A stretch of 64,000 bases of DNA, taken from NCBI RefSeq assembly GCF_964355755.1, contig NC_092672.1:13640001-13704000 (forward strand), in the 5' to 3' direction. The position numbers and the translations under genes were made by a program. This DNA is from Antedon mediterranea. Lineage: Eukaryota; Animalia; Echinodermata. Positions 10,380 to 44,242 of the stretch are shown here, in pieces (position 1 is the first letter of the stretch; every line of letters starts with the position of its first letter). Below the pieces are notes generated by a model. That model ran no database searches. It had not been told where the DNA came from and saw nothing but the letters and a program-made list of their open reading frames with translations.

Positions 10380-10392
10380 AAGAACAGATACT
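10380..10392 (-). other. 13-bp U2 snRNA segment (nt 35-47, AGTATCTGTTCTT) between two tandem Tx1 copies; putative target-site duplication
   Basis: The + strand AAGAACAGATACT is identical to the array U2 sequence and sits exactly between the A-rich 3' end of copy A and the 5' UTR of copy B. Confidence 0.8.
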
Positions 10393-11483: not shown

Positions 11484-11551
11484 GTTAACGTTATAGAACA
11501 CTTACGCTACGTTGTCAATTTACATAACAATACAGAGTGACGTAAGTAGCG

Positions 11552-12873: not shown

Positions 12874-13150
12874 TAAGGTTTATCGAAACAAAGACGAAAC
12901 AGTAAAATATACGTTTCATGGCTATAAATTACGTCATTAACAAAATTTGAAAATACGCCCATTCGTTTCTCTGTGCATTTTAACAATTAAACAATCAACT
13001 GAAATTACAGTAACATATTATTCAGAAAAAATACATAATTATTTCTCTATTGAAAAAGTATGACGTAACAACATGTAACCTGTTACGTAAATACAGAAGA
13101 CCTACAATAAACAGTGTAACAGATTCTATTTTTTAATAATTATCTTGATA

Positions 13151-13303
13151 GGTTGGGCCAATCCTGGACGTACTGCAATACCAGGTCAACCCGTGGCCAG
13201 GATGGAGCAAGCTCCTATTCCATGGCCTAAATTAAAAAATCAGTTTAATATAGAAGCTACTCGATGAGCAGCGTTTCAGATATTAAGCTGAAAAGAACAG
13301 ATA
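13151..13303 (-). pseudogene. U2: U2 snRNA 3' fragment (nt 37-189) of the interrupted gene
   Basis: Identical to array U2 from TATCTGTTC to GGCCCAACC except an Sm-site G>T change. Ends at the (TCAA)3 tail. Confidence 0.95.
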
Positions 13304-14014
13304 TCAATCAATCAATTTATTTGGAAATTGCACCTTTACATCGGTGGCACACACAGGAAGTGGTGCATCCATATTGAACACAATTAACATAAAATGACGG
13401 ATACGGATACTTAAGCTGATTTGAATTAAAATTAGTACTATATACTGTGGCAATATTTGTCTGACATGATCGAGTTGATACATTTTAGTTAAATATATTT
13501 ATATATATATACATAAAGAGGAAGTAGTAACAAAAATATTTGTTGATGACGATATTAAAATTATCATGATAGTTAATATTGAAATGGTTTCATATACAGT
13601 ATAGTATATAATACTATATTATCTATACCATTCCGGTAGGTCGAGTCGACCTTCAATCAAATACTGTACATCGTTCATGTTGTAATTAAAGACGGGGTAT
13701 ATCAATCAATCAATCAATCAATTTATTTGGAAATTGCACCTTTACATCGGTGGCACACACAGGAAGTGGTGCATCCATATTGAACACAATTAACATAAAA
13801 TGACGGATACGGATACTTAAGCTAATTTGAATTAAAATTAGTACTCTATATTGTAGCAATATTTGTCTGACATGAGTTGATACATTTTAGTTAAATATAT
13901 TTATATTATATAGGCCTACATAAAGAGGAAGTAGTAACAAAAATATTTGTTGATGAGGATATTAAAATTATCATGATAGTTAATATTGAAATGGTTTCAT
14001 ATACAGTATAGTAA
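13304..14014 (-). repeat. Duplicated 3' terminus of the RTEX-like element (13304-13606 vs 13702-14014) separated by ~95 bp of unrelated DNA
   Basis: Both copies begin (TCAA)nTTTATTTGGAAATTGCACCTTTACATCGGTGGCACAC on the + strand and differ by several substitutions and indels. Confidence 0.92.
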
Positions 14015-14084
14015 TAACAATTATACATAGTGATACAAAATAATATATAAAAAATACATTCACATAAAATCATAAGTTAATACG

Positions 14085-14122
<38 letters not shown>

Positions 14123-14412
14123 ACTATACTACTATACTTAACTAAAAAAGCCAAAAGAAAACGTTGGTAAGTAAATATATTTAATGTAAGGTATAGCCTG
14201 TTAATCATTACTGTATTTATAGTTCTACATTAGTAGTACCAGACTACTACAGTTTAGTGATAACAATAATTATTAATACATGATACAAAATAATATATAT
14301 ATAAATACATTCACATTCACAAAAAAAACTTAAGTATACTATACTTAACTAAAAAAATTCTTTATTTCGTTACTCTATTTACAGTTATACATTAGTAGTA
14401 CCAGACTGGTAT

Positions 14413-17400
14413 TTAAATCTTTAACATTTTGGTACGTGAAGCCCATGCTTGTTTTATATAGCTTTTGCAAAACATGTCAAATATTTCATTTACTTTATTA
14501 ACAATTACTGGTTGCGTCCCAGTAGGAAGGCTAGTGTCACTTCCTAGGGTTAGTTTTAGTTTTAATACTGGGTTACCTAGTAGAAAGTACAACCAGAATG
14601 TATATAGATTACTATTATATAGGTTATGCTCAAGTTTACAATATTCCGTTGAGCGTAGATCATCAAAATATTTGCATTTGAACATAAAATGTATAATGTC
14701 TTCTTTATCATTTTTACATATAGGACATGTACCATCATTATCTTCTTCCCATATAGATTTCTTAAGGTTAAGTGCAAGTGTATTTGATCTTGCCTTAAAT
14801 TTAAGACTTGCCCCTAAGAAATCTAATTTATCTAAAAGATACGGTTCTATATATGGTGTGGATTTAAGTGTGACATAATTCATCAATGAAGTTTTCTTTC
14901 TGGCTTGGTCAAAAATTTGGATACCATCAATACTTTTAATTATACTTTTTGAAATGATTACCCATTGATTGTTAGTATCTGTCGTTAATTTAAACCTGTG
15001 GCTCATTCCACACAAGTCTAGAGTATTTTGCATATGGTTGTACCATTTCCATTTGAATGTAGACGTATGACCAATGAATAGCATTGCACTAAAAGCCAAT
15101 TTGGGCCATCGACTCATATCCATCTTTACTAAACGATTTAAGAAATCAATTCGTTGCATGTCTTGAATAGTTGAAATAGACTTCCAACCTAGATCACCGT
15201 ACAAAGCTTCCTTACAAGTTGTACGTGGTGATTTGAGTATTGCCTTTGCCATTTGGGTTTGTAATTTTTCAAGATTTTGAATATCACTTATACCACCACA
15301 GACATATGTAGAGCACGCATAGTTAATTGAAGGAAGACCCAGAGTCTTCCACAACAAATCTCCATAAAACACTCTGTTATAATCATCTTGATCATTAATA
15401 ATTGACTTTATATACGCTATAATTCTATATCCCTTCTTAATAACCTCTTCAATATGACAGTGATCGGAAAGAGATCTTGTAATATGGGATCCTAAATATT
15501 TGTAACTATTAACTTCTGAAATATAATGATCACTTAATGGCCATAATCTCTGTTTGTCTGTTCTTTTTCCAGTAATTAAAACATTGGATTTCTCATAGTT
15601 GAATTCTAATTTGTAGTCATTACTAAATTTTGTAGCTAGATCAAGCATTTCTTGTAACTCCCTTTCATCGTTAGCTAGCAGAACAACATCATCTGCCCAG
15701 AATAGACCACTTAATTGAACATTACATATTTCTATGCCCATTTTGTTTTCCCTTAGAAGTTTGGCAAATTCATTTATGTATATACAAAATAAAATAGGTG
15801 ATAATGCACAACCTTGTTTAACACCTTCTTCAATTTCGAAATATTCTGTTTCGATTTCTCCAAATTTTACTTTACAGTGAACATTATTATATATATTAAA
15901 TAATATTTTCCATACATTTCCTTTAATACCAATATCCCATGCTGTGGTTAACAATTTGTCTCTCCATACAGTATCGAAGGCCTTTCGAAAATCAAGAAAA
16001 GCCATATATGTATTTTTACCCTCTGCCTGTCTGGTTGAGGCTATACATTTAAGTGTGAAAATATGATCATCACAGCGATGGTCTTTTCTGAATCCACCTT
16101 GGATTTCAGACAATATGTTGTTGCTTTCAAGAAACTTTGAGATATTATTAGATATAATACGCGTGAATACCTTGGACACACATGAGTTGAGAGTTATACC
16201 TCTATAATTGTTTAAGTCATTTTTTGGACCTTTCTTGTGAACCGGGATTATTATACCTTTGTTCCATTCATCGGGGATAGTTTGAAGTTCTAACAGGCGA
16301 TTAAATAGTTGAGAGAGAGATTGGATAAGTTTATCTCCTCCAAATTTGAGAAGTTCATTAGGAATGGTATCAATGCCAGGTGCTTTGTGGTTTTTACATT
16401 GGCCTAAAGCCCATTTAATATCTAACATAGAGATATATATATTGCAAAGCTGAGGGGAATTTTGAGTTCCGATATTACATTCATCACTTTTATTTCTTAG
16501 ATTGTTTATTTCTTCTTTTGTTTGTTTAATTGAATAATCGTGAGTACCTAAGTTACTTTGTCCTAATGTCTTCCAATATTGACATATTGTCTCTTTTATT
16601 TTACATTTATCTGTTGTTGTCTTATCAGAGTTAGGCAGTTTAATTGAAGTAGTTTCAACTTTTTTGCGGTTAGAACCTCGTAAGTTTGTCCAAAAATTCT
16701 TACTGCTTACTCCACCGTTTTCTGAGATTTGTGCGCTTTTATCAATGCGAACTTGCATTATTTTCTTGTTGATTGCGTGTTTGACAGCTTTCCTTTTATG
16801 TTGGTAATTTTGCCATAGCTCGTTGCCATGTACTGTGTTTTTATTACTCTTCACCCAATGTCGGTGTTCTTTACTGGCAGTTTTTCTATCTTTGATCAAA
16901 TGATCAATGTTTGAGTCCCACCATCGTTTGTGTTTACATTTATTATTTTTGAATCCTATTGTTTTATTTGCTGCTTGTAGTAATTTTGATCGCCATGAGG
17001 ACCATAGCATATTTGGGCAGTCAAATTCATTGGCGTTCCATTCTTCCAAAGTATCTTTTAATTCTTTTTGGTAATTGGACCAGTCTTGATGTGGTAAAAT
17101 ATTCCAAATATTTGTGGAGTTTTTATTCTTTTTCTTTTTATTTAATTGACCAAAGCTTTGTTTAAAATTTGTTATTAATGTATTGTGATCACTGCCTAAA
17201 TGAAAGCGGTGGTCTTCATCCACAATAAATGTTTCTACATATTCTATTAGGTCGTCTGAGGTTAACATATAATCAATGGTTGAGGATTGATTATTCCTCA
17301 TCCATGTTGTCTTTCCGTGGCATAGTTTTGTACAGTTGAGAACTGTAAGTGCCGAATTTTCACAAAAATTAAGAAAACGTTTGCCATTCGTATTAAGAAC

Positions 17401-18117
17401 AGGGTCTCCATATGGGATTGCATTACCAATTCTGGCGTTAAAGTCTCCCATAATTAAAATGTGTGCAGCTTTTTCATTTTCAATTTGTAAAATTTCTGAT
17501 AGGAGTTGATTATATAATTCATCAGAGAGACATGCATCAGTTCCTTCGACAGGAAAGTAAGCTACTGCTATATATATAATATTATTGTTTAACTTAACTT
17601 TTATCCATAGTCTTTCATAATCATCGTGCGGGTCGAAATAATTATCATCCATGATTGTAATCGCCTCCGATATTAGAAAACCTATACCACCCCCATTTTT
17701 AGATTTTCTATTTTTGCCAATCCATTTATAGCTGTTAATGTCAATTGTTTGATCATTTTGTAGAAATGTTTCAGCTAAACCTAATATTTGGATACTATTG
17801 TCTTTTAAGAAATGATCAATCTCATAGATCTTAGATTTTACCCTGTTTACGTTATTAAATGCAATCTTAATGTTAGAACATTCATTATTCTTATCATTAC
17901 GACTTTTCTTTTTACCACGTCTATGTCTTTTACTTGATTTAACTTTTTCATTACTTTGGTCTATAACAGAACTTTCTCTTGAGATATTACACTTATGTTC
18001 ATTGTTATATTCATTACTAAGCAAAAAATACCTGTTTTGTTGTTGACTTGTCCAGTCAGTACTACCGGTTAAGGAAATATGTCCCTTATAACCGGCTCTT
18101 TCTTCATGGCCATGTTC
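14413..18117 (-). CDS. ORF2: APE endonuclease, reverse transcriptase and C-terminal zinc finger. The frame is open from the ORF1 stop; the track start at 18024 is a TTG.
   Basis: FNNVN, LAETF, GGGIGF, MGDFNARIG, TIDYML, SDH; KAPGIDTIPNE, NYRGITL, QGGFR, FLDFRKAFDTVWR, GVKQGCALSPILF, FWADD, YKYLG; CPICKNDKEDIIHFMFKC. No stop in >1200 codons. Confidence 0.93.
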   Translation of the reverse strand, partial: EHGHEERAGYKGHISLTGSTDWTSQQQNRYFLLSNEYNNEHKCNISRESSVIDQSNEKVKSSKRHRRGKKKSRNDKNNECSNIKIAFNNVNRVKSKIYEIDHFLKDNSIQILGLAETFLQNDQTIDINSYKWIGKNRKSKNGGGIGFLISEAITIMDDNYFDPHDDYERLWIKVKLNNNIIYIAVAYFPVEGTDACLSDELYNQLLSEILQIENEKAAHILIMGDFNARIGNAIPYGDPVLNTNGKRFLNFCENSALTVLNCTKLCHGKTTWMRNNQSSTIDYMLTSDDLIEYVETFIVDEDHRFHLGSDHNTLITNFKQSFGQLNKKKKNKNSTNIWNILPHQDWSNYQKELKDTLEEWNANEFDCPNMLWSSWRSKLLQAANKTIGFKNNKCKHKRWWDSNIDHLIKDRKTASKEHRHWVKSNKNTVHGNELWQNYQHKRKAVKHAINKKIMQVRIDKSAQISENGGVSSKNFWTNLRGSNRKKVETTSIKLPNSDKTTTDKCKIKETICQYWKTLGQSNLGTHDYSIKQTKEEINNLRNKSDECNIGTQNSPQLCNIYISMLDIKWALGQCKNHKAPGIDTIPNELLKFGGDKLIQSLSQLFNRLLELQTIPDEWNKGIIIPVHKKGPKNDLNNYRGITLNSCVSKVFTRIISNNISKFLESNNILSEIQGGFRKDHRCDDHIFTLKCIASTRQAEGKNTYMAFLDFRKAFDTVWRDKLLTTAWDIGIKGNVWKILFNIYNNVHCKVKFGEIETEYFEIEEGVKQGCALSPILFCIYINEFAKLLRENKMGIEICNVQLSGLFWADDVVLLANDERELQEMLDLATKFSNDYKLEFNYEKSNVLITGKRTDKQRLWPLSDHYISEVNSYKYLGSHITRSLSDHCHIEEVIKKGYRIIAYIKSIINDQDDYNRVFYGDLLWKTLGLPSINYACSTYVCGGISDIQNLEKLQTQMAKAILKSPRTTCKEALYGDLGWKSISTIQDMQRIDFLNRLVKMDMSRWPKLAFSAMLFIGHTSTFKWKWYNHMQNTLDLCGMSHRFKLTTDTNNQWVIISKSIIKSIDGIQIFDQARKKTSLMNYVTLKSTPYIEPYLLDKLDFLGASLKFKARSNTLALNLKKSIWEEDNDGTCPICKNDKEDIIHFMFKCKYFDDLRSTEYCKLEHNLYNSNLYTFWLYFLLGNPVLKLKLTLGSDTSLPTGTQPVIVNKVNEIFDMFCKSYIKQAWASRTKMLKI

Positions 18118-19272
18118 CTAGCATTCGGATGGGCAAATTACCGACTTATGGCCTAACAAACCACATGAGTAACACTTAATATGTTGACCATGTCTACAGT
18201 TCTTTTTGACATGATTGTGTTCACCACAGAAGTGACATCCGGCACGTTGACTTTGTCTGTTGTTAGATCCTTTCGCTTGGTTGTTTCTCCGTTCAGATTC
18301 AAATGTATGCGAATTCCTTCTTTTGGGTGACGGTTTGCCGCGTGTTGACTGTCCGTTATGTAATCGATTCTGTTTGCGAATAATTGGGTGGTGCCTATTG
18401 ATGTTGCGTAGAAGGCGTCTTGTGCCGCTCGTTGACAGGTGTAGTCCATATCTATCAAGTGTTGATGTGTCTACTGAATTGTCCTGTTGTTTGAAATTTT
18501 CGTCATTTTCAACTAATATGCATCCATTTGTGTCGGCCAGTGATCTTAGTTTTGTGTTAAGTTTGTCCACAAGTTTCTGGTGGCCTGGGTGGTCAGTACG
18601 TGGTAATACTGTCGAAAGAATGACAAGTGAGTTTGGTGAGCGTCCATTAAGATAAAATACGATTTCCTCATATTTACCTTCTGCTATTTCTTCATCGGCT
18701 TCAGAAGTGCAGTCATTTGTGCTTCCATGAATTATAATCGTTGAGAATGTGTCAACAGGTAGCTCATCTAATCTTTTCTTAATATCATTGACTCTTTTGC
18801 CGCGTAGGCACTCGATCGTTGTGTTTTCCAAACCATTTTTATTTACATCTCGAAGTATGGAATCGCTTATTAGAAGTGTTGGTGCTGATTGTTTATTTGC
18901 TACATTGTCATTCTGATTTGTTGCAAAGACATCTTGTTTATTCGTTTCCTGTCGATTGTTAGGTTTATCCTGTCCCTGGTTACATGAAAGCATATTTAGT
19001 TTGTTGATCAACTCCTCGTTTTTACTTTCAAGGCTTTTAATTTTCGTTGTTTGTTCAGTTAATAGTATATCTTGGTCTAAGGACTTGTTCAGGACTGTGT
19101 TTAGTTTTGCAGTTAGCTCTTTAATGCAGGCTGGTAGGCGGTGGCATGATAAGCAGAACCATATAGTTGGTTTCTTTCCTTTCATTCCAATACATGAACG
19201 GTGATATAATTGGTTGCACAGATTGCATTCAATCGCTGATGCTGTATCAGATTTTGTTTGCTTACAAGCATC
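18118..19272 (-). CDS. ORF1: truncated PHD finger, coiled coil, SGNH esterase-like domain, two CCHC knuckles (first ATG at 19185)
   Basis: Hand translation upstream of 19185 gives DACKQTKSDTASAIECNLCNQLYHRSCIG, then MKGKKPTIWFCLSC (PHD). ISDSILR, IIHGSTND and DRYGLHL are SGNH blocks. Knuckles: CHFCGEHNHVKKNC, CYSCGLLGHKSVIC. Confidence 0.88.
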   Translation of the reverse strand, partial: DACKQTKSDTASAIECNLCNQLYHRSCIGMKGKKPTIWFCLSCHRLPACIKELTAKLNTVLNKSLDQDILLTEQTTKIKSLESKNEELINKLNMLSCNQGQDKPNNRQETNKQDVFATNQNDNVANKQSAPTLLISDSILRDVNKNGLENTTIECLRGKRVNDIKKRLDELPVDTFSTIIIHGSTNDCTSEADEEIAEGKYEEIVFYLNGRSPNSLVILSTVLPRTDHPGHQKLVDKLNTKLRSLADTNGCILVENDENFKQQDNSVDTSTLDRYGLHLSTSGTRRLLRNINRHHPIIRKQNRLHNGQSTRGKPSPKRRNSHTFESERRNNQAKGSNNRQSQRAGCHFCGEHNHVKKNCRHGQHIKCYSCGLLGHKSVICPSEC

Positions 19273-19311
19273 ATACTACACATGATCTTAGCCAAAAGGC
19301 CGAGAAGCGAT
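19273..19311 (-). pseudogene. U2: U2 snRNA 5' fragment (nt 1-39) with intact upstream promoter, fused to the retroelement
   Basis: ATCGCTTCTCGGCCTTTTGGCTAAGATCATGTGTAGTAT on the minus strand. Confidence 0.95.
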
Positions 19312-19890: not shown

Positions 19891-19901
19891 CTATCTTGAT
19901 A

Positions 19902-20090
19902 GGTTGGGCCAATCCTGGACGTACTGCAATACCAGGTCAACCCGTGGCCAGGATGGAGCAAGCTCCTATTCCATGGCCTAAATTCAAAAATCAGTTTAAT
20001 ATAGAAGCTACTCGATGAGCAGCGTTTCAGATATTAAGCTGAAAAGAACAGATACTACACATGATCTTAGCCAAAAGGCCGAGAAGCGAT
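19902..20090 (-). ncRNA. U2: U2 snRNA copy 1
   Basis: ATCGCTTCTCGGCCTTTTGGCTAAGATCATGTGTAGTATCTGTTC…, GUAGUA branch-site recognition, Sm site AUUUUUG, loop IV AUUGCAGUAC. The 3' end is approximate (+/-3 nt). Confidence 0.97.
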
Positions 20091-20134
20091 AACAATTAAA
20101 CGAATCTCAACTAGTACCAACAAATGACGACTTG

Positions 20135-20151
20135 CTGTCGAATCAGTGTGA
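20135..20151 (-). promoter_or_regulatory. Candidate snRNA proximal sequence element (PSE), TCACACTGATTCGACAG at -61..-45 (present in every unit)
   Basis: Position and TCAC start match metazoan PSEs (vertebrate consensus TCACCNTNAS…). Function is inferred. Confidence 0.6.
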
Positions 20152-20681
20152 TACATATAATGTAGCTAATGCATACATTCGACCGATGTGTTAAGCCATA
20201 CCGTTTAAAATATAAAAGTTTTTACAGAGATTATAGAGTAATATAATTAATTTGTAATAACTGTCAACATGTTTTTTTTAAACAAAACTGATGACGTGTT
20301 ACGTTCGATGGTCGTAAAACACCGTTAACACTTACGCTACGTTGTCAATTTACATAACAATACAGAGTATACATACAGTGACGTAAGTAGCGTAATGTTT
20401 ATCGAGTCGGACCGTAAAACAAAGACGAAACAGTAAAATATACGTTTCATGGCTATAAATTACGTCATTAACAAAATTTGAATATACGCCCATTCGTTTC
20501 TCTGTGCATTTTAATAATTAAACAATCAACTGAAATTACAGTAACATTTTATTCAGAAAAAATACATAATTATTTCTCTATAGAAAAAGTATGACGTAAC
20601 AACATGTAACCTGTTACGTAAATACAGAAGACTTACAATAAACCGTGTGACAGATTCTCTTTTTTAATAATTATCTTGATA

Positions 20682-20870
20682 GGTTGGGCCAATCCTGGAT
20701 GTACTGCAATACCAGGTCAACCCGTGGCCAGGATGGAGCAAGCTCCTATTCCATGGCCTAAATTCAAAAATCAGTTTAATATAGAAGCTACTCGATGAGC
20801 AGCGTTTCAGATATTAAGCTGAAAAGAACAGATACTACACATGATCTTAGCCAAAAGGCCGAGAAGCGAT
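20682..20870 (-). ncRNA. U2: U2 snRNA copy 2
   Basis: As copy 1. Confidence 0.95.
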
Positions 20871-21461
20871 AACAATTAAACGAATCTCAACTAGTACCAA
20901 CAAATGACGACTTGCTGTCGAATCAGTGTGATACATAATGTAGCTAATGCATACATTCGACCGATGTGTTAAGCCATACCGTTTAAAATATAAAAGTTTT
21001 TACAGAGATTATAGAGTAATATAATTAATTTGTAATATTAACTGTCAACATGTTTTTTTAAAACAAAACTGATGACGTGTTACGTTCGATGGTCGTAAAA
21101 CACCGTTAACGTTATAGAACACTTACGCTACGTTGTCAATTTACATAACAATACAGAGTGACGTAAGTAGCGTAAGGTTTATCGAGTCGGACCGTAAAAC
21201 AAAGACGAAACAGTAAAATATACGTTTCATGGCTATAAATTACGTCATTAACAAAATTTGAATATACGCCCATTCGTTTCTCTGTGCATTTTAATAATTA
21301 AACAATCAACTGAAATTACAGTAACATTTTATTCAGAAAAAATACATAATTATTTCTCTATTGAAAAAGTATGACGTAACAACATGTAACCTGTAACGTA
21401 AATACAGAAGACCTACAATAAACAGTGTAACAGATTCTATTTTTTAATAATTATCTTGATA

Positions 21462-21650
21462 GGTTGGGCCAATCCTGGACGTACTGCAATACCAGGTCAA
21501 CCCGTGGCCAGGATGGAGCAAGCTCCTATTCCATGGCCTAAATTCAAAAATCAGTTTAATATAGAAGCTACTCGATGAGCAGCGTTTCAGATATTAAGCT
21601 GAAAAGAACAGATACTACACATGATCTTAGCCAAAAGGCCGAGAAGCGAT
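21462..21650 (-). ncRNA. U2: U2 snRNA copy 3
   Basis: As copy 1. Confidence 0.95.
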
Positions 21651-22241
21651 AACAATTAAACGAATCTCAACTAGTACCAACAAATGACGACTTGCTGTCG
21701 AATCAGTGTGATACATATAATGTAGCTAATGCATACATTCGACCGATGTGTTAAGCCATACCGTTTAGAATATAAAAGTTTTTACAGAGATTATAGAGTA
21801 ATATAATTAATTTGTAATAACTGTCAACATGTTTTTTTAAAACAAAACTGATGACGTGTTACGTTCGATGGTCGTAAAACACCGTTAACGTTATAGAACA
21901 CTTACGCTACGTTGTCAATTTACATAACAATACAGAGTGACGTAAGTAGCGTAAGGTTTATCGAGTCGGACCGTAAAACAAAGACGAAACAGTAAACTAT
22001 ACGTTTCATGGCTATAAATTAGGTCAATAAATAAAAATTGAAAATACGCCCATTCGTTTCTCTGTGCATTTTAATAATTAAAAAATCAACTGAAATTACA
22101 GTAACATTTCATTCAGAAAAAATAAATAATTATTTCTCTATAGAAAAAGTATGACGCAACAACATGTAACCTGTTACGTAAATACAGAAGACTTACAATA
22201 AACCGTGTGACAGACTCTCTTTTTTAATAATTATCTTGATA

Positions 22242-22430
22242 GGTTGGGCCAATCCTGGATGTACTGCAATACCAGGTCAACCCGTGGCCAGGATGGAGCA
22301 AGCTCCTATTCCATGGCCTAAATTCAAAAATCAGTTTAATATAGAAGCTACTCGATGAGCAGCGTTTCAGATATTAAGCTGAAAAGAACAGATACTACAC
22401 ATGATCTTAGCCAAAAGGCCGAGAAGCGAT
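22242..22430 (-). ncRNA. U2: U2 snRNA copy 4
   Basis: As copy 1. Confidence 0.95.
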
Positions 22431-23023
22431 AACAATTAAACGAATCTCAACTAGTACCAACAAATGACGACTTGCTGTCGAATCAGTGTGATACATATAA
22501 TGTAGCTAATGCATACATTCGACCGATGTGTTAAGCCATACCGTTTAAAATATAAAAGTTTTTACAGAGATTATAGAGTAATATAATTAATTTGTAATAT
22601 TAACTGTCAACATGTTTTTTTAAAACAAAACTGATGACGTGTTACGTTCGATGGTCGTAAAACACCGTTAACGTTATAGAACACTTACGCTACGTTGTCA
22701 ATTTACATAACAATACAGAGTGACGTAAGTAGCGTAAGGTTTATCGAGTCGGACCGTAAAACAAAGACGAAACAGTAAAATATACGTTTCATGGCTATAA
22801 ATTACGTCATTAACAAAATTTGAATATACGCCCATTCGTTTCTCTGTGCATTTTAATAATTAAACAATCAACTGAAATTACAGTAACATTTTATTCAGAA
22901 AAAATACATAATTATTTCTCTATTGAAAAAGTATGACGTAACAACATGTAACCTGTAACGTAAATACAGAAGACCTACAATAAACAGTGTAACAGATTCT
23001 ATTTTTTAATAATTATCTTGATA

Positions 23024-23212
23024 GGTTGGGCCAATCCTGGACGTACTGCAATACCAGGTCAACCCGTGGCCAGGATGGAGCAAGCTCCTATTCCATGGCC
23101 TAAATTCAAAAATCAGTTTAATATAGAAGCTACTCGATGAGCAGCGTTTCAGATATTAAGCTGAAAAGAACAGATACTACACATGATCTTAGCCAAAAGG
23201 CCGAGAAGCGAT
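23024..23212 (-). ncRNA. U2: U2 snRNA copy 5
   Basis: As copy 1. Confidence 0.95.
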
Positions 23213-23803
23213 AACAATTAAACGAATCTCAACTAGTACCAACAAATGACGACTTGCTGTCGAATCAGTGTGATACATATAATGTAGCTAATGCATACAT
23301 TCGACCGATGTGTTAAGTCATACCGTTTAGAATATAAAAGTTTTTACAGAGATTATAGAGTAATATAATTAATTTGTAATAACTGTCAACATGTTTTTTT
23401 AAAACAAAACTGATGACGTGTTACGTTCGATGGTCGTAAAACACCGTTAACGTTATAGAACACTTACGCTACGTTGTCAATTTACATAACAATACAGAGT
23501 GACGTAAGTAGCGTAAGGTTTATCGAGTCGGACCGTAAAACAAAGACGAAACAGTAAACTATACGTTTCATGGCTATAAATTAGGTCAATAAATAAAAAT
23601 TGAAAATACGCCCATTCGTTTCTCTGTGCATTTTAATAATTAAAAAATCAACTGAAATTACAGTAACATTTCATTCAGAAAAAATAAATAATTATTTCTC
23701 TATAGAAAAAGTATGACGCAACAACATGTAACCTGTTACGTAAATACAGAAGACTTACAATAAACCGTGTGACAGATTCTCTTTTTTAATAATTATCTTG
23801 ATA

Positions 23804-23992
23804 GGTTGGGCCAATCCTGGATGTACTGCAATACCAGGTCAACCCGTGGCCAGGATGGAGCAAGCTCCTATTCCATGGCCTAAATTCAAAAATCAGTTTA
23901 ATATAGAAGCTACTCGATGAGCAGCGTTTCAGATATTAAGCTGAAAAGAACAGATACTACACATGATCTTAGCCAAAAGGCCGAGAAGCGAT
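23804..23992 (-). ncRNA. U2: U2 snRNA copy 6
   Basis: As copy 1. Confidence 0.95.
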
Positions 23993-24585
23993 AACAATTA
24001 AACGAATCTCAACTAGTACCAACAAATGACGACTTGCTGTCGAATCAGTGTGATACATATAATGTAGCTAATGCATACATTCGACCGATGTGTTAAGCCA
24101 TACCGTTTAAAATATAAAAGTTTTTACAGAGATTATAGAGTAATATAATTAATTTGTAATATTAACTGTCAACATGTTTTTTTAAAACAAAACTGATGAC
24201 GTGTTACGTTCGATGGTCGTAAAACACCGTTAACGTTATAGAACACTTACGCTACGTTGTCAATTTACATAACAATACAGAGTGACGTAAGTAGCGTAAG
24301 GTTTATCGAGTCGGACCGTAAAACAAAGACGAAACAGTAAAATATACGTTTCATGGCTATAAATTACGTCATTAACAAAATTTGAATATACGCCCATTCG
24401 TTTCTCTGTGCATTTTAATAATTAAACAATCAACTGAAATTACAGTAACATTTTATTCAGAAAAAATACATAATTATTTCTCTATTGAAAAAGTATGACG
24501 TAACAACATGTAACCTGTAACGTAAATACAGAAGACCTACAATAAACAGTGTAACAGATTCTATTTTTTAATAATTATCTTGATA

Positions 24586-24774
24586 GGTTGGGCCAATCCT
24601 GGACGTACTGCAATACCAGGTCAACCCGTGGCCAGGATGGAGCAAGCTCCTATTCCATGGCCTAAATTCAAAAATCAGTTTAATATAGAAGCTACTCGAT
24701 GAGCAGCGTTTCAGATATTAAGCTGAAAAGAACAGATACTACACATGATCTTAGCCAAAAGGCCGAGAAGCGAT
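24586..24774 (-). ncRNA. U2: U2 snRNA copy 7
   Basis: As copy 1. Confidence 0.95.
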
Positions 24775-25364
24775 AACAATTAAACGAATCTCAACTAGTA
24801 CCAACAAATGACGACTTGCTGTCGAATCAGTGTGATACATATAATGTAGCTAATGCATACATTCGACCGATGTGTTAAGCCATACCGTTTAAAATATAAA
24901 AGTTTTTACAGAGATTATAGAGTAATATAATTAATTTGTAATAACTGTCAACATGTTTTTTTTAAACAAAACTGATGACGTGTTACGTTCGATGGTCGTA
25001 AAACACCGTTAACGTTATAGAACACTTACGCTACGTTGTCAATTTACATAACAATACAGAGTGACGTAAGTAGCGTAAGGTTTATCGAGTCGGACCGTAA
25101 AACAAAGACGAAACAGTAAAATATACGTTTCATGGCTATAAATTACGTCATTAACAAAATTTGAATATACGCCCATTCGTTTCTCTGTGCATTTTAATAA
25201 TTAAACAATCAACTGAAATTACAGTAACATTTTATTCAGAAAAAATACATAATTATTTCTCTATTGAAAAAGTATGACGTAACAACATGTAACCTGTAAC
25301 GTAAATACAGAAGACCTACAATAAACAGTGTAACAGATTCTATTTTTTAATAATTATCTTGATA

Positions 25365-25553
25365 GGTTGGGCCAATCCTGGACGTACTGCAATACCAGGT
25401 CAACCCGTGGCCAGGATGGAGCAAGCTCCTATTCCATGGCCTAAATTAAAAAATCAGTTTAATATAGAAGCTACTCGATGAGCAGCGTTTCAGATATTAA
25501 GCTGAAAAGAACAGATACTACACATGATCTTAGCCAAAAGGCCGAGAAGCGAT
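25365..25553 (-). ncRNA. U2: U2 snRNA copy 8 (Sm-site G>U variant)
   Basis: As copy 1. Confidence 0.93.
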
Positions 25554-26081
25554 AACAATTAAACGAATCTCAACTAGTACCAACAAATGACGACTTGCTG
25601 TCGAATCAGTGTGATACATATAATGTAGCTAATGCATACATTCGACCGATGTGTTAAGCCATACCGTTTAAAATATAAAGTTTTTACAGAGATTATAGAG
25701 TAATATAATTAATTTGTAATAACTGTCAACATGTTTTTTTTAAACAAAACTGATGACGTGTTACGTTCGATGGTCGTAAAACACCGTTAACGTTATAGAA
25801 CACTTACGCTACGTTGTCAATTTACATAACAATACAGAGTGACGTAAGTAGCGTAATGTTTATCGAGTCGGACCGTAAAACAAAGACGAAACAGTAAAAT
25901 ATACGTTTCATGGCTATAAATTACGTCATTAACAAAATTTGAATATACGCCCATTCGTTTCTCTGTGCGTTTTAATAATTAAACAATCAACTGAAATTAC
26001 AGTAACATTTTATTCAGAAAAAATACATAATTATTTCTCTATTGAAAAAGTATGACGTAACAACATGTAACCTGTAACGTA

Positions 26082-26531
26082 TTTATTTATTTATTTATTT
26101 GGAATTACACCTTTAGATCGGTGGCACACTTAGCACAAAGGTGCATCCTTCACAATATAAAATATAACAATTAACAGAAAAGTAAAAAAAGGCAAAAGCA
26201 ACTATCAACCCCTATCCTACCCCCCCCCCCCCCAATTTACATCGATACATACAGTAGATCATTACTTTACACAATGAATACAAAACAAGATATAGTAAAA
26301 GTGTATAAAATAAAATAAAATCAGCTGATAAACACAGCTTATTACGAAAAACCCCCAACTCCTCCCCCCTCCCACTTTTTTTTCAATTTACTTAATGTAG
26401 CAATGTAGATAACATAGTTATTGAGTCATGGAATTCAGTGAATCATTTCGAAATTGCCATGCTTGTTTTAGGTATCTTTTACAAAAACTATCTAAAATAT
26501 GTTCACACTCTTCATCAATTAAATTATCTGA
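26082..26531 (-). mobile_element. 450-bp 5'-truncated RTEX-like copy (second subfamily), (TAAA)n tail, GTA duplicated at the junctions, ~65 bp downstream of a U2 gene
   Basis: The minus strand encodes …EECEHILDSFCKRYLKQAWQFRNDS, similar to the ORF2 end (…EIFDMFCKSYIKQAWASR). It shares the terminal GGATGCACC…GTGTGCCACCGAT.TAAAGGTG.AATT.CCAAATAAA motif. Confidence 0.88.
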
Positions 26532-26595
26532 GTAAATACAGAAGACCTACAATAAACAGTGTAACAGATTCTATTTTTTAATAATTATCTTGATA

Positions 26596-26784
26596 GGTTG
26601 GGCCAATCCTGGACGTACTGCAATACCAGGTCAACCCGTGGCCAGGATGGAGCAAGCTCCTATTCCATGGCCTAAATTCAAAAATCAGTTTAATATAGAA
26701 GCTACTCGATGAGCAGCGTTTCAGATATTAAGCTGAAAAGAACAGATACTACACATGATCTTAGCCAAAAGGCCGAGAAGCGAT
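26596..26784 (-). ncRNA. U2: U2 snRNA copy 9
   Basis: As copy 1. Confidence 0.95.
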
Positions 26785-27374
26785 AACAATTAAACGAATC
26801 TCAACTAGTACCAACAAATGACGACTTGCTGTCGAATCAGTGTGATACATATAATGTAGCTAATGCATACATTCGACCGATGTGTTAAGTCATACCGTTT
26901 AGAATATAAAAGTTTTTACAGAGATTATAGAGTAATATAATTAATTTGTAATAACTGTCAACATGTTTTTTTAAAACAAAACTGATGACGTGTTACGTTC
27001 GATGGTCGTAAAACACCGTTAACGTTAAAGAACACTTACGCTACGTTGTCAATTTACATAACAATACAGAGTGACGTAAGTAGCGTAAGGTTTATCGAGT
27101 CGGACCGTAAAACAAAGACGAAACAGTAAAATATACGTTTCATGGCTATAAATTACGTCATTAACAAAATTTGAATATACGCCCATTCGTTTCTCTGTGC
27201 ATTTTAATAATTAAACAATCAACTGAAATTACAGTAACATTTTATTCAGAAAAAATACATAATTATTTCTCTATTGAAAAAGTATGACGTAACAACATGT
27301 AACCTGTAACGTAAATACAGAAGACCTACAATAAACAGTGTAACAGATTCTATTTTTTAATAACTATCTTGATA

Positions 27375-27563
27375 GGTTGGGCCAATCCTGGACGTACTGC
27401 AATACCAGGTCAACCCGTGGCCAGGATGGAGCAAGCTCCTATTCCATGGCCTAAATTCAAAAATCAGTTTAATATAGAAGCTACTCGATGAGCAGCGTTT
27501 CAGATATTAAGCTGAAAAGAACAGATACTACACATGATCTTAGCCAAAAGGCCGAGAAGCGAT
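27375..27563 (-). ncRNA. U2: U2 snRNA copy 10
   Basis: As copy 1. Confidence 0.95.
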
Positions 27564-28154
27564 AACAATTAAACGAATCTCAACTAGTACCAACAAATGA
27601 CGACTTGCTGTCGAATCAGTGTGATACATATAATGTAGCTAATGCATACATTCGACCGATGTGTTAAGCCATACCGTTTAAAATATAAAAGTTTTTACAG
27701 AGATTATAGAGTAATATAATTAATTTGTAATAACTGTCAACATGTTTTTTTTAAACAAAACTGATGACGTGTTACGTTCGATGGTCGTAAAACACCGTTA
27801 ACACTTACGCTACGTTGTCAATTTACATAACAATACAGAGTATACATACAGTGACGTAAGTAGCGTAATGTTTATCGAGTCGGACCGTAAAACAAAGACG
27901 AAACAGTAAAATATACGTTTCATGGCTATAAATTACGTCATTAACAAAATTTGAATATACGCCCATTCGTTTCTCTGTGCATTTTAATAATTAAACAATC
28001 AACTGAAATTACAGTAACATTTTATTCAGAAAAAATACATAATTATTTCTCTATTGAAAAAGTATGACGTAACAACATGTAACCTGTAACGTAAATACAG
28101 AAGACCTACAATAAACAGTGTAACAGATTCTATTTTTTAATAATTATCTTGATA

Positions 28155-28343
28155 GGTTGGGCCAATCCTGGACGTACTGCAATACCAGGTCAACCCGTGG
28201 CCAGGATGGAGCAAGCTCCTATTCCATGGCCTAAATTCAAAAATCAGTTTAATATAGAAGCTACTCGATGAGCAGCGTTTCAGATATTAAGCTGAAAAGA
28301 ACAGATACTACACATGATCTTAGCCAAAAGGCCGAGAAGCGAT
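28155..28343 (-). ncRNA. U2: U2 snRNA copy 11
   Basis: As copy 1. Confidence 0.95.
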
Positions 28344-28951
28344 AACAATTAAACGAATCTCAACTAGTACCAACAAATGACGACTTGCTGTCGAATCAGT
28401 GTGATACATATAATGTAGCTAATGCATACATTCGACCGATGTGTTAAGCCATACCGTTTAAAATATAAAAGTTTTTACAGAGATTATAGAGTAATATAAT
28501 TAATTTGTAATATTAACTGTCAACATGTTTTTTTAAAACAAAACTGATGACGTGTTACGTTCGATGGTCGTAAAACACCGTTAACGTTATAGAACACTTA
28601 CGCTACGTTGTCAATTTACATAACAATACAGAGTATACATACAGTGACGTAAGTAGCGTAAGGTTTATCGAGTTGGACCGTAAAACAAAGACGAAACAGT
28701 AAACTATACGTTTCATGGCTATAAATTAGGTCAATAAATAAAAATTGAAAATACGCCCATTCGTTTCTCTGTGCATTTTAATAATTAAAAAATCAACTGA
28801 AATTACAGTAACATTTCATTCAGAAAAAATAAATAATTATTTCTCTATAGAAAAAGTATGACGTAACAACATGTAACCTGTTACGTAAATACAGAAGAAG
28901 ACCTACAATAAACAGTGTAACAGATTCTATTTTGTAATAATTATCTTGATA

Positions 28952-29140
28952 GGTTGGGCCAATCCTGGATGTACTGCAATACCAGGTCAACCCGTGGCCA
29001 GGATGGAGCAAGCTCTTATTCCATGGCCTAAATTCAAAAATAAGTTTAATATAGAAGCTACTCGATGAGCAGCGTTTCAGATATTAAGCTGAAAAGAACA
29101 GATACTACACATGATCTTAGCCAAAAGGCCGAGAAGCGAT
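28952..29140 (-). ncRNA. U2: U2 snRNA copy 12
   Basis: As copy 1. Confidence 0.95.
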
Positions 29141-29745
29141 AACAATTAAACGAATCTCAACTAGTACCAACAAATGACGACTTGCTGTCGAATCAGTGTG
29201 ATACATATAATGTAGCTAATGCATACATTCGACCGATGTGTTAAGCCATACCGTTTAAAATATAAAAGTTTTTACAGAGATTATAGAGTAATATAATTAA
29301 TTTGTAATAACTGTCAACATGTTTTTTTAAAACAAAACTGATGACGTGTTACGTTCGATGGTCGTAAAACACCGTTAACGTTATAGAACACTTACGCTAC
29401 GTTGTCAATTTACATAACAATACAGAGTATACATACAGTGACGTAAGTAGCGTAAGGTTTATCGAGTCGGACCGTAAAACAAAGACGAAACAGTAAACTA
29501 TACGTTTCATGGCTATAAATTAGGTCAATAAATAAAAATTGAAAATACGCCCATTCGTTTCTCTGTGCATTTTAATAATTAAAAAATCAACTGAAATTAC
29601 AGTAACATTTCATTCAGAAAAAATAAATAATTATTTCTCTATAGAAAAAGTATGACGTAACAACATGTAACCTGTTACGTAAATACAGAAGAAGACCTAC
29701 AATAAACAGTGTAACAGATTCTATTTTGTAATAATTATCTTGATA

Positions 29746-29934
29746 GGTTGGGCCAATCCTGGATGTACTGCAATACCAGGTCAACCCGTGGCCAGGATGG
29801 AGCAAGCTCCTATTCCATGGCCTAAATTCAAAAATAAGTTTAATATAGAAGCTACTCGATGAGCAGCGTTTCAGATATTAAGCTGAAAAGAACAGATACT
29901 ACACATGATCTTAGCCAAAAGGCCGAGAAGCGAT
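29746..29934 (-). ncRNA. U2: U2 snRNA copy 13
   Basis: As copy 1. Confidence 0.95.
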
Positions 29935-30524
29935 AACAATTAAACGAATCTCAACTAGTACCAACAAATGACGACTTGCTGTCGAATCAGTGTGATACAT
30001 ATAATGTAGCTAATGAATACATTCGACCGATGTGTTAAGCCATACCGTTTAAAATATAAAAGTTTTTACAGAGATTGTAGAGTAATATAATTAATTTGTA
30101 ATAACTGTCAACATGTTTTTTTAAAACAAAACTGATGACGTGTTACGTTCGATGGTCGTAAAACACCGTTAACGTTATAGAACACTTACGCTACGTTGTC
30201 AATTTACATAACAATACAGAGTGACGTAAGTAGCGTAAGGTTTATCGAGTCGGACCGTAAAACAAAGACGAAACAGTAAAATATACGTTTCATGGCTATA
30301 AATTACGTCATTAACAAAATTTGAATATACGCCCATTCGTTTCTCTGTGCATTTTAATAATTAAACAATCAACTGAAATTACAGTAACATTTTATTCAGA
30401 AAAAATACATAATTATTTCTCTATTGAAAAAGTATGACGTAACAACATGTAACCTGTAACGTAAATACAGAAGACCTACAATAAACAGTGTAACAGATTC
30501 TATTTTTTAATAATTATCTTGATA

Positions 30525-30713
30525 GGTTGGGCCAATCCTGGACGTACTGCAATACCAGGTCAACCCGTGGCCAGGATGGAGCAAGCTCCTATTCCATGGC
30601 CTAAATTCAAAAATCAGTTTAATATAGAAGCTACTCGATGAGCAGCGTTTCAGATATTAAGCTGAAAAGAACAGATACTACACATGATCTTAGCCAAAAG
30701 GCCGAGAAGCGAT
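30525..30713 (-). ncRNA. U2: U2 snRNA copy 14
   Basis: As copy 1. Confidence 0.95.
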
Positions 30714-31303
30714 AACAATTAAACGAATCTCAACTAGTACCAACAAATGACGACTTGCTGTCGAATCAGTGTGATACATATAATGTAGCTAATGCATACA
30801 TTCGACCGATGTGTTAAGTCATACCGTTTAGAATATAAAAGTTTTTACAGAGATTATAGAGTAATATAATTAATTTGTAATAACTGTCAACATGTTTTTT
30901 TAAAACAAAACTGATGACGTGTTACGTTCGATGGTCGTAAAACACCGTTAACGTTATAGAACACTTACGCTACGTTGTCAATTTACATAACAATACAGAG
31001 TGACGTAAGTAGCGTAAGGTTTATCGAGTCGGACCGTAAAACAAAGACGAAACAGTAAAATATACGTTTCATGGCTATAAATTACGTCATTAACAAAATT
31101 TGAATATACGCCCATTCGTTTCTCTGTGCATTTTAATAATTAAACAATCAACTGAAATTACAGTAACATTTTATTCAGAAAAAATACATAATTATTTCTC
31201 TATTGAAAAAGTATGACGTAACAACATGTAACCTGTAACGTAAATACAGAAGACCTACAATAAACAGTGTAACAGATTCTATTTTTTAATAATTATCTTG
31301 ATA

Positions 31304-31492
31304 GGTTGGGCCAATCCTGGACGTACTGCAATACCAGGTCAACCCGTGGCCAGGATGGAGCAAGCTCCTATTCCATGGCCTAAATTCAAAAATCAGTTTA
31401 ATATAGAAGCTACTCGATGAGCAGCGTTTCAGATATTAAGCTGAAAAGAACAGATACTACACATGATCTTAGCCAAAAGGCCGAGAAGCGAT
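31304..31492 (-). ncRNA. U2: U2 snRNA copy 15
   Basis: As copy 1. Confidence 0.95.
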
Positions 31493-32083
31493 AACAATTA
31501 AACGAATCTCAACTAGTACCAACAAATGACGACTTGCTGTCGAATCAGTGTGATACATATAATGTAGCTAATGCATACATTCGACCGATGTGTTAAGTCA
31601 TACCGTTTAGAATATAAAAGTTTTTACAGAGATTATAGAGTAATATAATTAATTTGTAATAACTGTCAACATGTTTTTTTAAAACAAAACTGATGACGTG
31701 TTACGTTCGATGGTCGTAAAACACCGTTAACGTTATAGAACACTTACGCTACGTTGTCAATTTACATAACAATACAGAGTGACGTAAGTAGCGTAAGGTT
31801 TATCGAGTCGGACCGTAAAACAAAGACGAAACAGTAAACTATACGTTTCATGGCTATAAATTAGGTCAATAAATAAAAATTGAAAATACGCCCATTCGTT
31901 TCTCTGTGCATTTTAATAATTAAAAAATCAACTGAAATTACAGTAATATTTCATTCAGAAAAAATAAATAATTATTTCTCTATAGAAAAAGTATGACGCA
32001 ACAACATGTAACCTGTTACGTAAATACAGAAGACTTACAATAAACCGTGTGACAGATTCTCTTTTTTAATAATTATCTTGATA

Positions 32084-32272
32084 GGTTGGGTCAATCCTGG
32101 ATGTACTGCAATACCAGGTCAACCCGTGGCCAGGATGGAGCAAGCTCCTATTCCATGGCCTAAATTCAAAAATCAGTTTAATATAGAAGCTACTCGATGA
32201 GCAGCGTTTCAGATATTAAGCTGAAAAGAACAGATACTACACATGATCTTAGCCAAAAGGCCGAGAAGCGAT
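32084..32272 (-). ncRNA. U2: U2 snRNA copy 16
   Basis: As copy 1. Confidence 0.95.
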
Positions 32273-32862
32273 AACAATTAAACGAATCTCAACTAGTACC
32301 AACAAATGACGACTTGCTGTCGAATCAGTGTGATACATATAATGTAGCTAATGCATACATTCGACCGATGTGTTAAGCCATACCGTTTAAAATATAAAAG
32401 TTTTTACAGAGATTATAGAGTAATATAATTAATTTGTAATAACTGTCAACATGTTTTTTTAAAACAAAACTGATGACGTGTTACGTTCGATGGTCGTAAA
32501 ACACCGTTAACGTTATAGAACACTTACGCTACGTTGTCAATTTACATAACAATACAGAGTGACGTAAGTAGCGTAAGGTTTATCGAGTCGGACCGTAAAA
32601 CAAAGACGAAACAGTAAAATATACGTTTCATGGCTATAAATTACGTCATTAACAAAATTTGAATATACGCCCATTCGTTTCTCTGTGCATTTTAATAATT
32701 AAACAATCAACTGAAATTACAGTAACATTTTATTCAGAAAAAATACATAATTATTTCTCTATTGAAAAAGTATGACGTAACAACATGTAACCTGTAACGT
32801 AAATACAGAAGACCTACAATAAACAGTGTAACAGATTCTATTTTTTAATAATTATCTTGATA

Positions 32863-33051
32863 GGTTGGGCCAATCCTGGACGTACTGCAATACCAGGTCA
32901 ACCCGTGGCCAGGATGGAGCAAGCTCCTATTCCATGGCCTAAATTCAAAAATCAGTTTAATATAGAAGCTACTCGATGAGCAGCGTTTCAGATATTAAGC
33001 TGAAAAGAACAGATACTACACATGATCTTAGCCAAAAGGCCGAGAAGCGAT
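32863..33051 (-). ncRNA. U2: U2 snRNA copy 17
   Basis: As copy 1. Confidence 0.95.
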
Positions 33052-33642
33052 AACAATTAAACGAATCTCAACTAGTACCAACAAATGACGACTTGCTGTC
33101 GAATCAGTGTGATACATATAATGTAGCTAATGCATACATTCGACCGATGTGTTAAGCCATACCGTTTAAAATATAAAAGTTTTTACAGAGATTATAGAGT
33201 AATATAATTAATTTGTAATAACTGTCAACATGTTTTTTTTAAACAAAACTGATGACGTGTTACGTTCGATGGTCGTAAAACACCGTTAACACTTACGCTA
33301 CGTTGTCAATTTACATAACAATACAGAGTATACATACAGTGACGTAAGTAGCGTAATGTTTATCGAGTCGGACCGTAAAACAAAGACGAAACAGTAAAAT
33401 ATACGTTTCATGGCTATAAATTACGTCATTAACAAAATTTGAATATACGCCCATTCGTTTCTCTGTGCATTTTAATAATTAAACAATCAACTGAAATTAC
33501 AGTAACATTTTATTCAGAAAAAATACATAATTATTTCTCTATTGAAAAAGTATGACGTAACAACATGTAACCTGTAACGTAAATACAGAAGACCTACAAT
33601 AAACAGTGTAACAGATTCTATTTTTTAATAATTATCTTGATA

Positions 33643-33831
33643 GGTTGGGCCAATCCTGGACGTACTGCAATACCAGGTCAACCCGTGGCCAGGATGGAGC
33701 AAGCTCCTATTCCATGGCCTAAATTAAAAAATCAGTTTATTATAGAAGCTACTCGATGAGCAGCGTTTCAGATATTAAGCTGAAAAGAACAGATACTACA
33801 CATGATCTTAGCCAAAAGGCCGAGAAGCGAT
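33643..33831 (-). ncRNA. U2: U2 snRNA copy 18 (Sm-site G>U variant)
   Basis: As copy 1. Confidence 0.93.
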
Positions 33832-44178: not shown

Positions 44179-44242
44179 GTAAATACAGAAGACCTACAAT
44201 AAACAGTGTAACAGATTCTATTTTTTAATAATTATCTTGATA

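What the first reader, a model, noticed from the sequence alone, without database searches (positions are those of the whole stretch)
13151..19311. RTEX-like LINE with open ORFs inserted at the branch-point recognition site of a U2 gene: candidate third U2-targeting lineage
Seen: U2 nt 1-39 (19273-19311) and nt 37-189 (13151-13303) flank a 5.97-kb sense-oriented element, with TAT on both sides (3-bp TSD or microhomology). The break is at the end of GUAGUA (nt 33-38), and ORF2 is fully open. Known: the described U2-specific non-LTR families, Keno (Tx1 clade, APE) and Utopia (restriction-like endonuclease), insert around U2 nt 37-38. Inference: this element is neither. It has an APE, a PHD+SGNH+CCHC ORF1, an RTE-group RT and a (TTGA)n tail, so it could be an independent origin of U2 targeting; I know of no U2-specific RTEX. 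Caveat: this is a single insertion, its internal tail has a non-U2 flank, and a relative inserted elsewhere in the unit, so strict specificity is unproven.
Basis: partly seen in the sequence, partly recalled or inferred. Interest (0 to 1): 0.82.

Follow-up and report, generated by a model that had tools for sequence, protein, structure and literature searches.

The report
RTEX-like LINE at Keno's U2 site
A front-truncated copy of a multi-copy jumping gene, likely of the RTEX type, splits the last U2 splicing-RNA gene of a long tandem array within two bases of the spot used by two known U2-targeting elements; matching tails also adjoin non-U2 DNA, so it is likely a dispersed element that landed there, though a real preference for U2 remains possible.

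Summary
On the minus strand a 5,969-nt non-LTR element splits the last U2 gene of an array (56 intact copies plus this one), with TAT on both sides (U2 nt 37-39). ORF2 (APE, RT, zinc finger; 1,234 codons) is open. Correction: the copy is 5'-truncated. ORF1 (PHD, SGNH, CCHC) has no start and lacks about 100-220 residues.

The RT does not nest in Tx1-like sequences (AU p = 1e-4), and there is no restriction-like nuclease, so it is neither Keno nor Utopia. RTEX rests on architecture; no named reference was available.

Strict U2 specificity is unlikely: about 40-80 3' ends (rough) against 1 of 57 U2 genes hit here, and two contigs from an independent sample join a matching tail to non-U2 DNA.

A weaker preference stays open (about 35%). 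The internal tail is also followed by TAT, which fits two successive hits at one site, and one contig joint may be a second U2-linked insertion. A Keno-like Tx1 tandem sits in what appears to be the next array unit.

Flank counts from the assembly would decide it.

The parts
19273..19311 (-). U2 snRNA gene, nt 1-39; ends in TAT (19275-19273), the 5' copy of the putative 3-bp target duplication
18118..19272 (-). ORF1, 5'-truncated: rest of a PHD finger, SGNH esterase, two CCHC knuckles; stop TAG at 18120-18118
14413..18117 (-). ORF2, open 1,234 codons: APE, RT (FWADD), C-terminal Cys/His finger; in frame with ORF1, first Met at residue 156
13702..14412 (-). 3' UTR of the long copy with internal near-repeats, a T33 run and the internal (TTGA)n tail
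13699..13701 (-). TAT directly after the internal tail: a third target copy if the two segments inserted one after the other
13614..13698 (-). 85 nt that is neither this element nor U2; lies in the deepest bins of the read laying and continues differently in 7 contigs of run X8, so likely a piece of another high-copy repeat
13304..13613 (-). second, short 3' copy of the same family (95% identical over 314 columns to 14017-13709) with the terminal (TTGA)n tail
13148..13303 (-). U2 snRNA gene, nt 37-192; begins with TAT
19899..63989 (-). tandem array of 56 intact U2 genes, unit about 780 nt (context; runs to the window end)
26082..26534 (-). 453-nt 3' fragment of a sister family with an (AAAT)n tail in the array spacer, TAC on both sides; repeated in the unit that starts at 44431
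10380..10392 (-). U2 nt 35-47 (13 of 13 letters) between the 3' end of one Tx1-like copy (11483-10393) and the 5' end of another (from 10379): Keno-like tandem (context)

Best explanation
This is a 5'-truncated copy of a multi-copy APE-type LINE family, likely RTEX, that likely inserted by target-primed reverse transcription after its own endonuclease nicked at a TA in the terminal U2 gene, and the family is likely dispersed rather than U2-specific. Shown: the domain layout, the truncation, the TAT on both sides, many more 3' ends than 5' ends in four sequencing runs, and a sister family in the array spacer with TAC on both sides. Inferred: ORF2p nicks the bottom strand opposite nt 36/37 or 37/38, primes on the (UUGA)n tail with about one base of pairing, stops inside ORF1 and joins three bases downstream, giving a 3-bp duplication. 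In this reading the internal tail, 85-nt foreign piece and second 3' copy came along in one event, by read-through at a non-U2 donor or by template jumps. The copy likely survives because terminal units escape array turnover, as the other insertions at this edge suggest. It lacks its own promoter and the ORF1 start, so it is likely dead in cis unless the U2 promoter reads into it.
For:: word depth in run X2 rises from 433 (ORF1) through 1,411 and 2,415 (single ORF2 contigs) to 11,572 at 13412; with single-variant contigs near 290 this is roughly 1.5-3, 5-10, 8-17 and 40-80 copies (the calibration is my assumption). Only 1 of 57 U2 genes in the window is hit. Run X5 (another sample and study of the same organism code) has 2 contigs whose loose ends at 13303 are not U2 (table 7). 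The sister family hit the spacer at unit position 251 with a 3-bp TAC, so this group does land in the array away from the Keno site. A 97.6% identical ORF2 copy is annotated as a gene model with foreign ends. Relatives at about 60% RT identity form clusters of 30 and 25 members; the 15 listed of each lie on contigs of 8-309 kb. PMC6007223 (passages) names only Tx1 and R1 as APE clades with site-specific members.
Against: For one insertion in a unit, the chance of a sense hit within 2 nt of the Keno site is about 0.3% (uniform) or 1.2% (TA sites at nt 34-41). The internal tail is followed by TAT (chance about 0.14), as two successive hits at the same site would leave. One joint in run X2 at single-variant depth (266) links place 13291 (U2 nt 49) through 13 letters to a family segment starting at 13913, a junction that is not in the window (table 5c). 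Only 24 of 232 loose ends were printed, the internal tail was skipped as a repeat in X2, and at 80% likeness the two X5 contigs may belong to a sister family. No flank of a close relative could be fetched.
Confidence: 0.5

Rival explanations
1. The family has a real preference for U2 nt 37-39 and also inserts elsewhere, like the weakly specific Utopia families of reptiles. Its APE would read the sequence upstream of the nick. The window would then hold two events in one gene: first a short copy with 85 extra 5' bases, then the long copy into the re-formed U2(1-36)|TAT site, each leaving TAT.
For: Layout U2(1-36)-TAT-long copy-TAT-extra-short copy-TAT-U2(40-). Site within 1-2 nt of the Keno/Utopia 3' junction at nt 39 (PMC4640811 section 6), sense orientation. 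Candidate second U2-linked joint in run X2 (table 5c). Tandem insertion in U2 and weak specificity are both described for Utopia; extra 5' bases are described for LINE inserts (PMC4245944 passages).
Against: 1 of 57 U2 genes hit against about 40-80 3' ends; two non-U2 flanks in X5. TAT after the internal tail needs only two informative bases, and TA also begins the spacer duplication. The X2 joint could be a short 80%-likeness match, and its other side begins in a TA-rich stretch. No such RTEX or RTE family turned up in six literature searches.
Confidence: 0.33
2. The element was captured at a nick or open site made by other means: the endonuclease of the resident Keno-like Tx1 family, or the exposed DNA 35-50 nt behind an snRNA promoter. 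The RTEX-like RNA would then have no specificity of its own.
For: A Tx1-like tandem with U2 nt 35-47 between the copies lies at 11483-5500, joined to array spacer DNA (chance of that 13-mer near the boundary about 7e-6), so a U2-site nuclease was likely active in this array. Two unreviewed earlier notes claim Keno lands 35-48 nt into several snRNA genes (not tested).
Against: The 3-bp duplication matches the sister family's TAC, not the 9-13 nt U2 piece between the Tx1 copies. The element's own APE motifs are intact. The Tx1 copies in the window are broken.
Confidence: 0.1
3. The family is strictly U2-specific, like Keno or the Utopia families of Phytophthora, and the other tails belong to sister families.
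For: Exact site and orientation; few copies reach ORF1 (depth 433 in X2), as expected for a low-copy targeted element.
Against: 3' UTR depth 11,572 at 13412, upstream of the 57-nt end shared with the sister family; 56 of 57 U2 genes empty; two non-U2 flanks at the exact tail end.
Confidence: 0.05
4. It is a Keno/Tx1 element with an odd ORF1, or an assembly chimera.
For: APE endonuclease and U2 site are shared with Keno. With all 8 Tx1/L1-like rows as a sister group the clade is not rejected (p-AU 0.159), which reflects the unrooted long branch. No listed contig spans the whole stretch.
Against: Nesting in animal Tx1-like rows rejected (p-AU 1.07e-4); P0001 alone with them rejected (0.0066); branch support 100. 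Both junctions are in register with a 3-bp overlap, which a mis-join would rarely give.
Confidence: 0.02

Closest known systems
RTEX clade of non-LTR retrotransposons (Kapitonov et al. 2009, not read; seen as cited in PMC3905857 and PMC5753468 passages)
   Same: Long ORF1 with an SGNH esterase, APE plus RT in ORF2, RT motifs of the RTE type (YRGI, DHIFTL, GVKQGCxLSP; the label is recalled), C-terminal Cys/His finger, short tandem-repeat tail.
   Different: No RTEX family with snRNA targeting was found in the searches; placement against named RTEX sequences not tested; the close clade has FWADD at the RT active site.
Keno (Tx1 clade; Kojima and Fujiwara 2004, not read; seen as cited in PMC4640811 and PMC4494074)
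   Same: APE endonuclease, animal host, sense insertion in U2, 3' junction within 1-2 nt of nt 39.
   Different: RT outside the Tx1-like rows; esterase ORF1; (TTGA)n tail; 3-bp duplication; specificity not shown.
Utopia (PMC4640811: passages, sections 6 and 8)
   Same: Same U2 region; occasional tandem insertion and weak specificity in some families would match the rival reading.
   Different: Utopia has one ORF with a restriction-like endonuclease; duplications of 0 or 20 bp.
RTE-clade insertion signature (PMC6007223: abstract and passages)
   Same: Duplication starts with T; microsatellite-like tail with 1-2 nt of 3' microhomology.
   Different: No T stretch 10 nt upstream at the U2 site (the TTTT is at nt 15-18, about 20 nt upstream); RTE proper lacks a long ORF1.

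Membership tests
RTEX clade | RT groups with named RTEX references | not testable with these tools
   No labelled RTEX, RTE or Keno sequence could be fetched; trees use unlabelled hits
RTEX clade | Long ORF1 with SGNH esterase | tested here: met
   PF13472 E 2.4e-9; PMC3905857 lists the esterase in CR1, RTEX and Penelope, so it is not unique to RTEX
RTEX clade | ORF2 with APE and RT | tested here: met
   PF14529, PF03372, PF00078
RTEX clade | RTE-group RT motifs and short-repeat tail (features recalled; tail type also in PMC6007223) | tested here: inconclusive
   Motifs printed and (ATCA)5.5 fit, but motif diagnosis rests on recall
Keno (Tx1) | APE endonuclease | tested here: met
Keno (Tx1) | RT within the Tx1 clade | tested here: not met
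   p-AU 1.07e-4 for nesting among 5 animal Tx1-like rows; these rows are hits of the window's own Tx1-like fragment, not named Keno
Keno (Tx1) | 3' flank starts at U2 nt 39 | tested here: inconclusive
   nt 37 or 38, or nt 39 with one extra A
Target-specific family (criterion of PMC4494074) | Over 20% of flanks are the target | tested here: inconclusive
   No genome held; one search shows 24 of 232 loose ends, two of them non-U2 at the tail; rough depth figures point below 20%
Utopia | Restriction-like endonuclease at the C-terminus, no APE | tested here: not met
   N-terminal APE; no such domain among the 4 Pfam hits

The most novel reading that the evidence does not exclude
An RTEX-like lineage of feather stars has evolved, independently of Keno and Utopia, a preference for U2 nt 37-39: a third origin of targeting at this site and the first target-preferring APE element outside Tx1 and R1. 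It hit this gene twice in succession, and shares the site with a resident Keno-like family in the next array unit.
Probability: 0.35. Interest if true: 0.75.

Novelty: new member of a known kind. Interest (0 to 1): 0.45.

Why it matters
If the best reading holds, this is an ordinary LINE at a suggestive place. If the preference is real, three unrelated endonuclease lineages converge on one site in U2, and the statement that only Tx1 and R1 hold site-specific APE elements (PMC6007223) fails. The open ORF2 and dozens of relatives at 56-73% RT identity would then let one ask which APE residues create specificity, and whether sequence or promoter-proximal accessibility makes this site a target. 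It would also add a candidate enzyme for targeted gene insertion.

Tried and rejected
No whole genome is held, so no genome-wide flank count. Viral contigs: 2 distant loci, 0 for the ORF1 alignment, 0 for the tail motif, 0 for the tail-U2 junction pattern. Prokaryote genome contigs: 4 distant loci. None of the 86 loci has a meaningful U2 match (best 14 nt, E 0.21) or the tail motif; they are too distant to count for or against. Sequencing runs: no RNA holder listed; three small-share runs, of which only X9 was laid. Earlier findings: nothing for the protein, the tail or RTEX words. Rfam at E up to 5 found only U2 and three chance-level hits in 9000-14500. Solved structures gave only distant L1 and R2 matches. 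Rejected: that the copy is full length; that tail pairing explains the site (one base only); that the T-stretch signature of RTE explains it. No fold was predicted, since it would not decide specificity.
Full report
Observation. The region is read on the minus strand. Rfam lists 57 U2 matches in the window: 56 intact genes from 19899 to 63989 and a partial one at 13148-13364. Units are about 780 nt. The last gene is split: nt 1-39 at 19311-19273, 5,969 nt of insert, then nt 37-192 from 13303. TAT stands on both sides. Its first T also continues the (TTGA)n tail, so the 3' flank starts at nt 37 or 38, or at 39 with one extra A. PMC4640811 (section 6) puts the Utopia 3' flank at nt 39 and says that Keno's is identical. 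The rejoined gene differs from the array majority at 1 of 192 positions, a variant seen in 3 of 56 intact copies, so the insertion is likely young.

The element. ORF2 is open for 1,234 codons and has APE, RT and a weak zf-RVT hit; ORF1 has PHD, SGNH esterase and CCHC hits. The copy is 5'-truncated. Of 4 ORF1 homologues, 3 cover 99% of the query, are 486-590 aa long and run about 100-220 residues further N-terminal; a profile search shows many more of 530-650 aa. In three runs a contig continues 410, 221 and 1,318 letters past 19260 (table 8; my reading of the record coordinates; the letters were not shown). ORF2 follows ORF1 in frame across one TAG and has no Met until residue 156, while most relatives are called with a start upstream of the APE; how ORF2 is initiated is open. 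A protein 97.6% identical over 802 residues is recorded from Antedon mediterranea, so the host is likely a feather star and that record is likely another copy.

Kinship. The RT search gave 358 proteins, 120 listed; 40 of these are at 51-73% identity, besides the near-identical copy, with named ones from a crinoid, a brittle star and an acorn worm. For a Tx1 comparison I used hits of the window's own broken Tx1-like RT; they are unlabelled. From 300 RT candidates I hand-picked 86. The 21 close rows form one group (99) and the 20 Tx1/L1-like rows plus one locus lie across a branch of support 100 (quick tree, LG+G4). On 32 rows, nesting the close group among 5 animal Tx1-like rows is rejected (p-AU 1.07e-4), as is P0001 alone with all 8 (0.0066); the close group as sister to all 8 is not rejected (0.159). 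RT identity is 21-27% to the Tx1/L1-like rows. PMC3905857 (passages) places esterase ORF1s in CR1, RTEX and Penelope and says RTE proper has little or no ORF1. With RT motifs that I recall as RTE-type, RTEX is the best label, but membership was not tested against named sequences.

The 3' region is composite. After the long copy's tail come TAT (13701-13699), 85 nt of foreign DNA (13698-13614) and a second 3' copy, 95% identical over 314 columns, with the terminal tail. The 85 nt lie in the deepest bins and continue differently in 7 contigs of run X8, so they likely derive from another high-copy repeat. Two readings fit. One event carried both tails from a non-U2 donor, or by template jumps. 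Or a short copy with extra 5' bases inserted first and the long copy then hit the re-formed site, each leaving TAT. The third TAT has two informative bases (chance about 0.14), so it favours the second reading only slightly.

Specificity. No genome is held and no flank of a close relative could be fetched. Eleven runs hold the stretch or part of it; 4 of 11 were laid on 13272-19260 at 80% likeness. The family is present in all four, from three organism codes. In X2, depth is 433 over ORF1, 751-2,415 in single ORF2 contigs, 11,572 at 13412 and 50,443 at 13315, where sister families share the end. Taking seven low-depth variants (median 293.5) as one or two haploid copies gives about 40-80 3' ends. 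The tool warns that depth is no copy number, so this is a rough guide only. In the window 1 of 57 U2 genes is hit. In X5, 2 contigs leave the reference at 13303 with non-U2 letters. A sister family with an (AAAT)n tail sits in the spacer with TAC on both sides, in 2 units. These points make strict specificity unlikely. Against a pure accident: one insertion in a unit has about a 0.3-1.2% chance of this position and orientation, and table 5c has a joint in X2, depth 266, from 13913 through 13 letters to 13291 (U2 nt 49). Read in element direction it is U2 nt 37-49 followed by a family segment starting at 13913, a junction not in the window. It may be a second U2-linked insertion or a short chance match; side lengths were not given. 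Only 24 of 232 loose ends were printed. The scan covers some 250,000 windows, so a 1% coincidence is expected now and then.

Context. Beyond the split gene the spacer runs to 12886, is interrupted by another RT-bearing insert, resumes at 11551-11483 and joins the 3' part of a Tx1-like copy. That copy ends at 10393 and is followed by U2 nt 35-47, 13 of 13 letters, and by the 5' end of a second copy, 98% identical where they overlap. This looks like a Keno tandem in the next unit (inference; no named Keno was compared). It shows the array edge collects insertions and offers a source of nicks at this site, but the 3-bp duplication here matches the sister family, not the Tx1 pair.

Mechanism and odds. 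Most likely (0.5) a dispersed RTEX-like family whose APE nicks at TA and leaves 3-bp duplications, caught at U2 nt 37. Next (0.33) a real but weak U2 preference; then capture at a Keno nick or promoter-proximal open site (0.1), strict specificity (0.05), Tx1 membership or artefact (0.02). The layout is shown; nicking, priming and order of events are inferred.

Literature. [quoted passage not shown] PMC4494074 gives the 20% criterion and Keno's range (passages). PMC6007223 says only Tx1 and R1 hold site-specific APE LINEs (abstract and passages). PMC5753468 and PMC4245944 were seen as passages. Six searches returned no U2-targeting RTEX or RTE family. Repbase, subscription papers, figures and the supplements of these papers were not seen; the junction alignments in S1 Fig of PMC4640811 and Repbase entries may bear on the exact site and on novelty.

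Verdict. Observation confirmed with a correction (5'-truncated). Interpretation partly supported: not Keno, not Utopia, targeting unproven. New member of a known kind; interest 0.45. The novel reading has probability about 0.35 and would deserve 0.75.

Noticed in passing
window 5500-11483 (-): Two Tx1-like copies in tandem with U2 nt 35-47 between them, the first joined to array spacer DNA; the second has an open 445-codon ORF1 frame about 60 nt after the U2 piece and a broken ORF2. Likely a feather-star Keno.
   Followed up: partly
window 18100-18135 (-): ORF1 and ORF2 are in frame across a single TAG, ORF2 has no Met before residue 156, and a stem-loop is predicted about 20 nt after the stop: read-through or non-AUG re-initiation is possible.
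   Followed up: partly
window 11552-12885: Insert in the array spacer with a plus-strand RT and ALKBH8_N (PF09004) frame at 11646-12509; about 24 nt of spacer lost at the site.
   Followed up: no
window 19899-63989: The U2 copies read AUGUGUAGUA where the Rfam consensus has AAGUGUAGUA (nt 30 A to U), next to the branch-point pairing region; the spacer insertion recurs 17.6 kb apart (units at 26784 and 44431), which suggests a higher-order duplication.
   Followed up: no
window 4103-5500 (-): Fragment of another APE-type LINE (364-codon frame) that cuts off the 3' end of the Tx1-like copy.
   Followed up: no
window 6750-7717: About 970-nt insert with 148-nt inverted ends (95% alike) inside the Tx1-like ORF2: likely a non-autonomous DNA transposon.
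   Followed up: no
window 1-1390: Degenerate tandem repeat at the window start.
   Followed up: no
L083, L084 (whole): Eukaryote-type LINE ORFs on contigs of two bacterial metagenome-assembled genomes, likely contamination of those assemblies.
   Followed up: no
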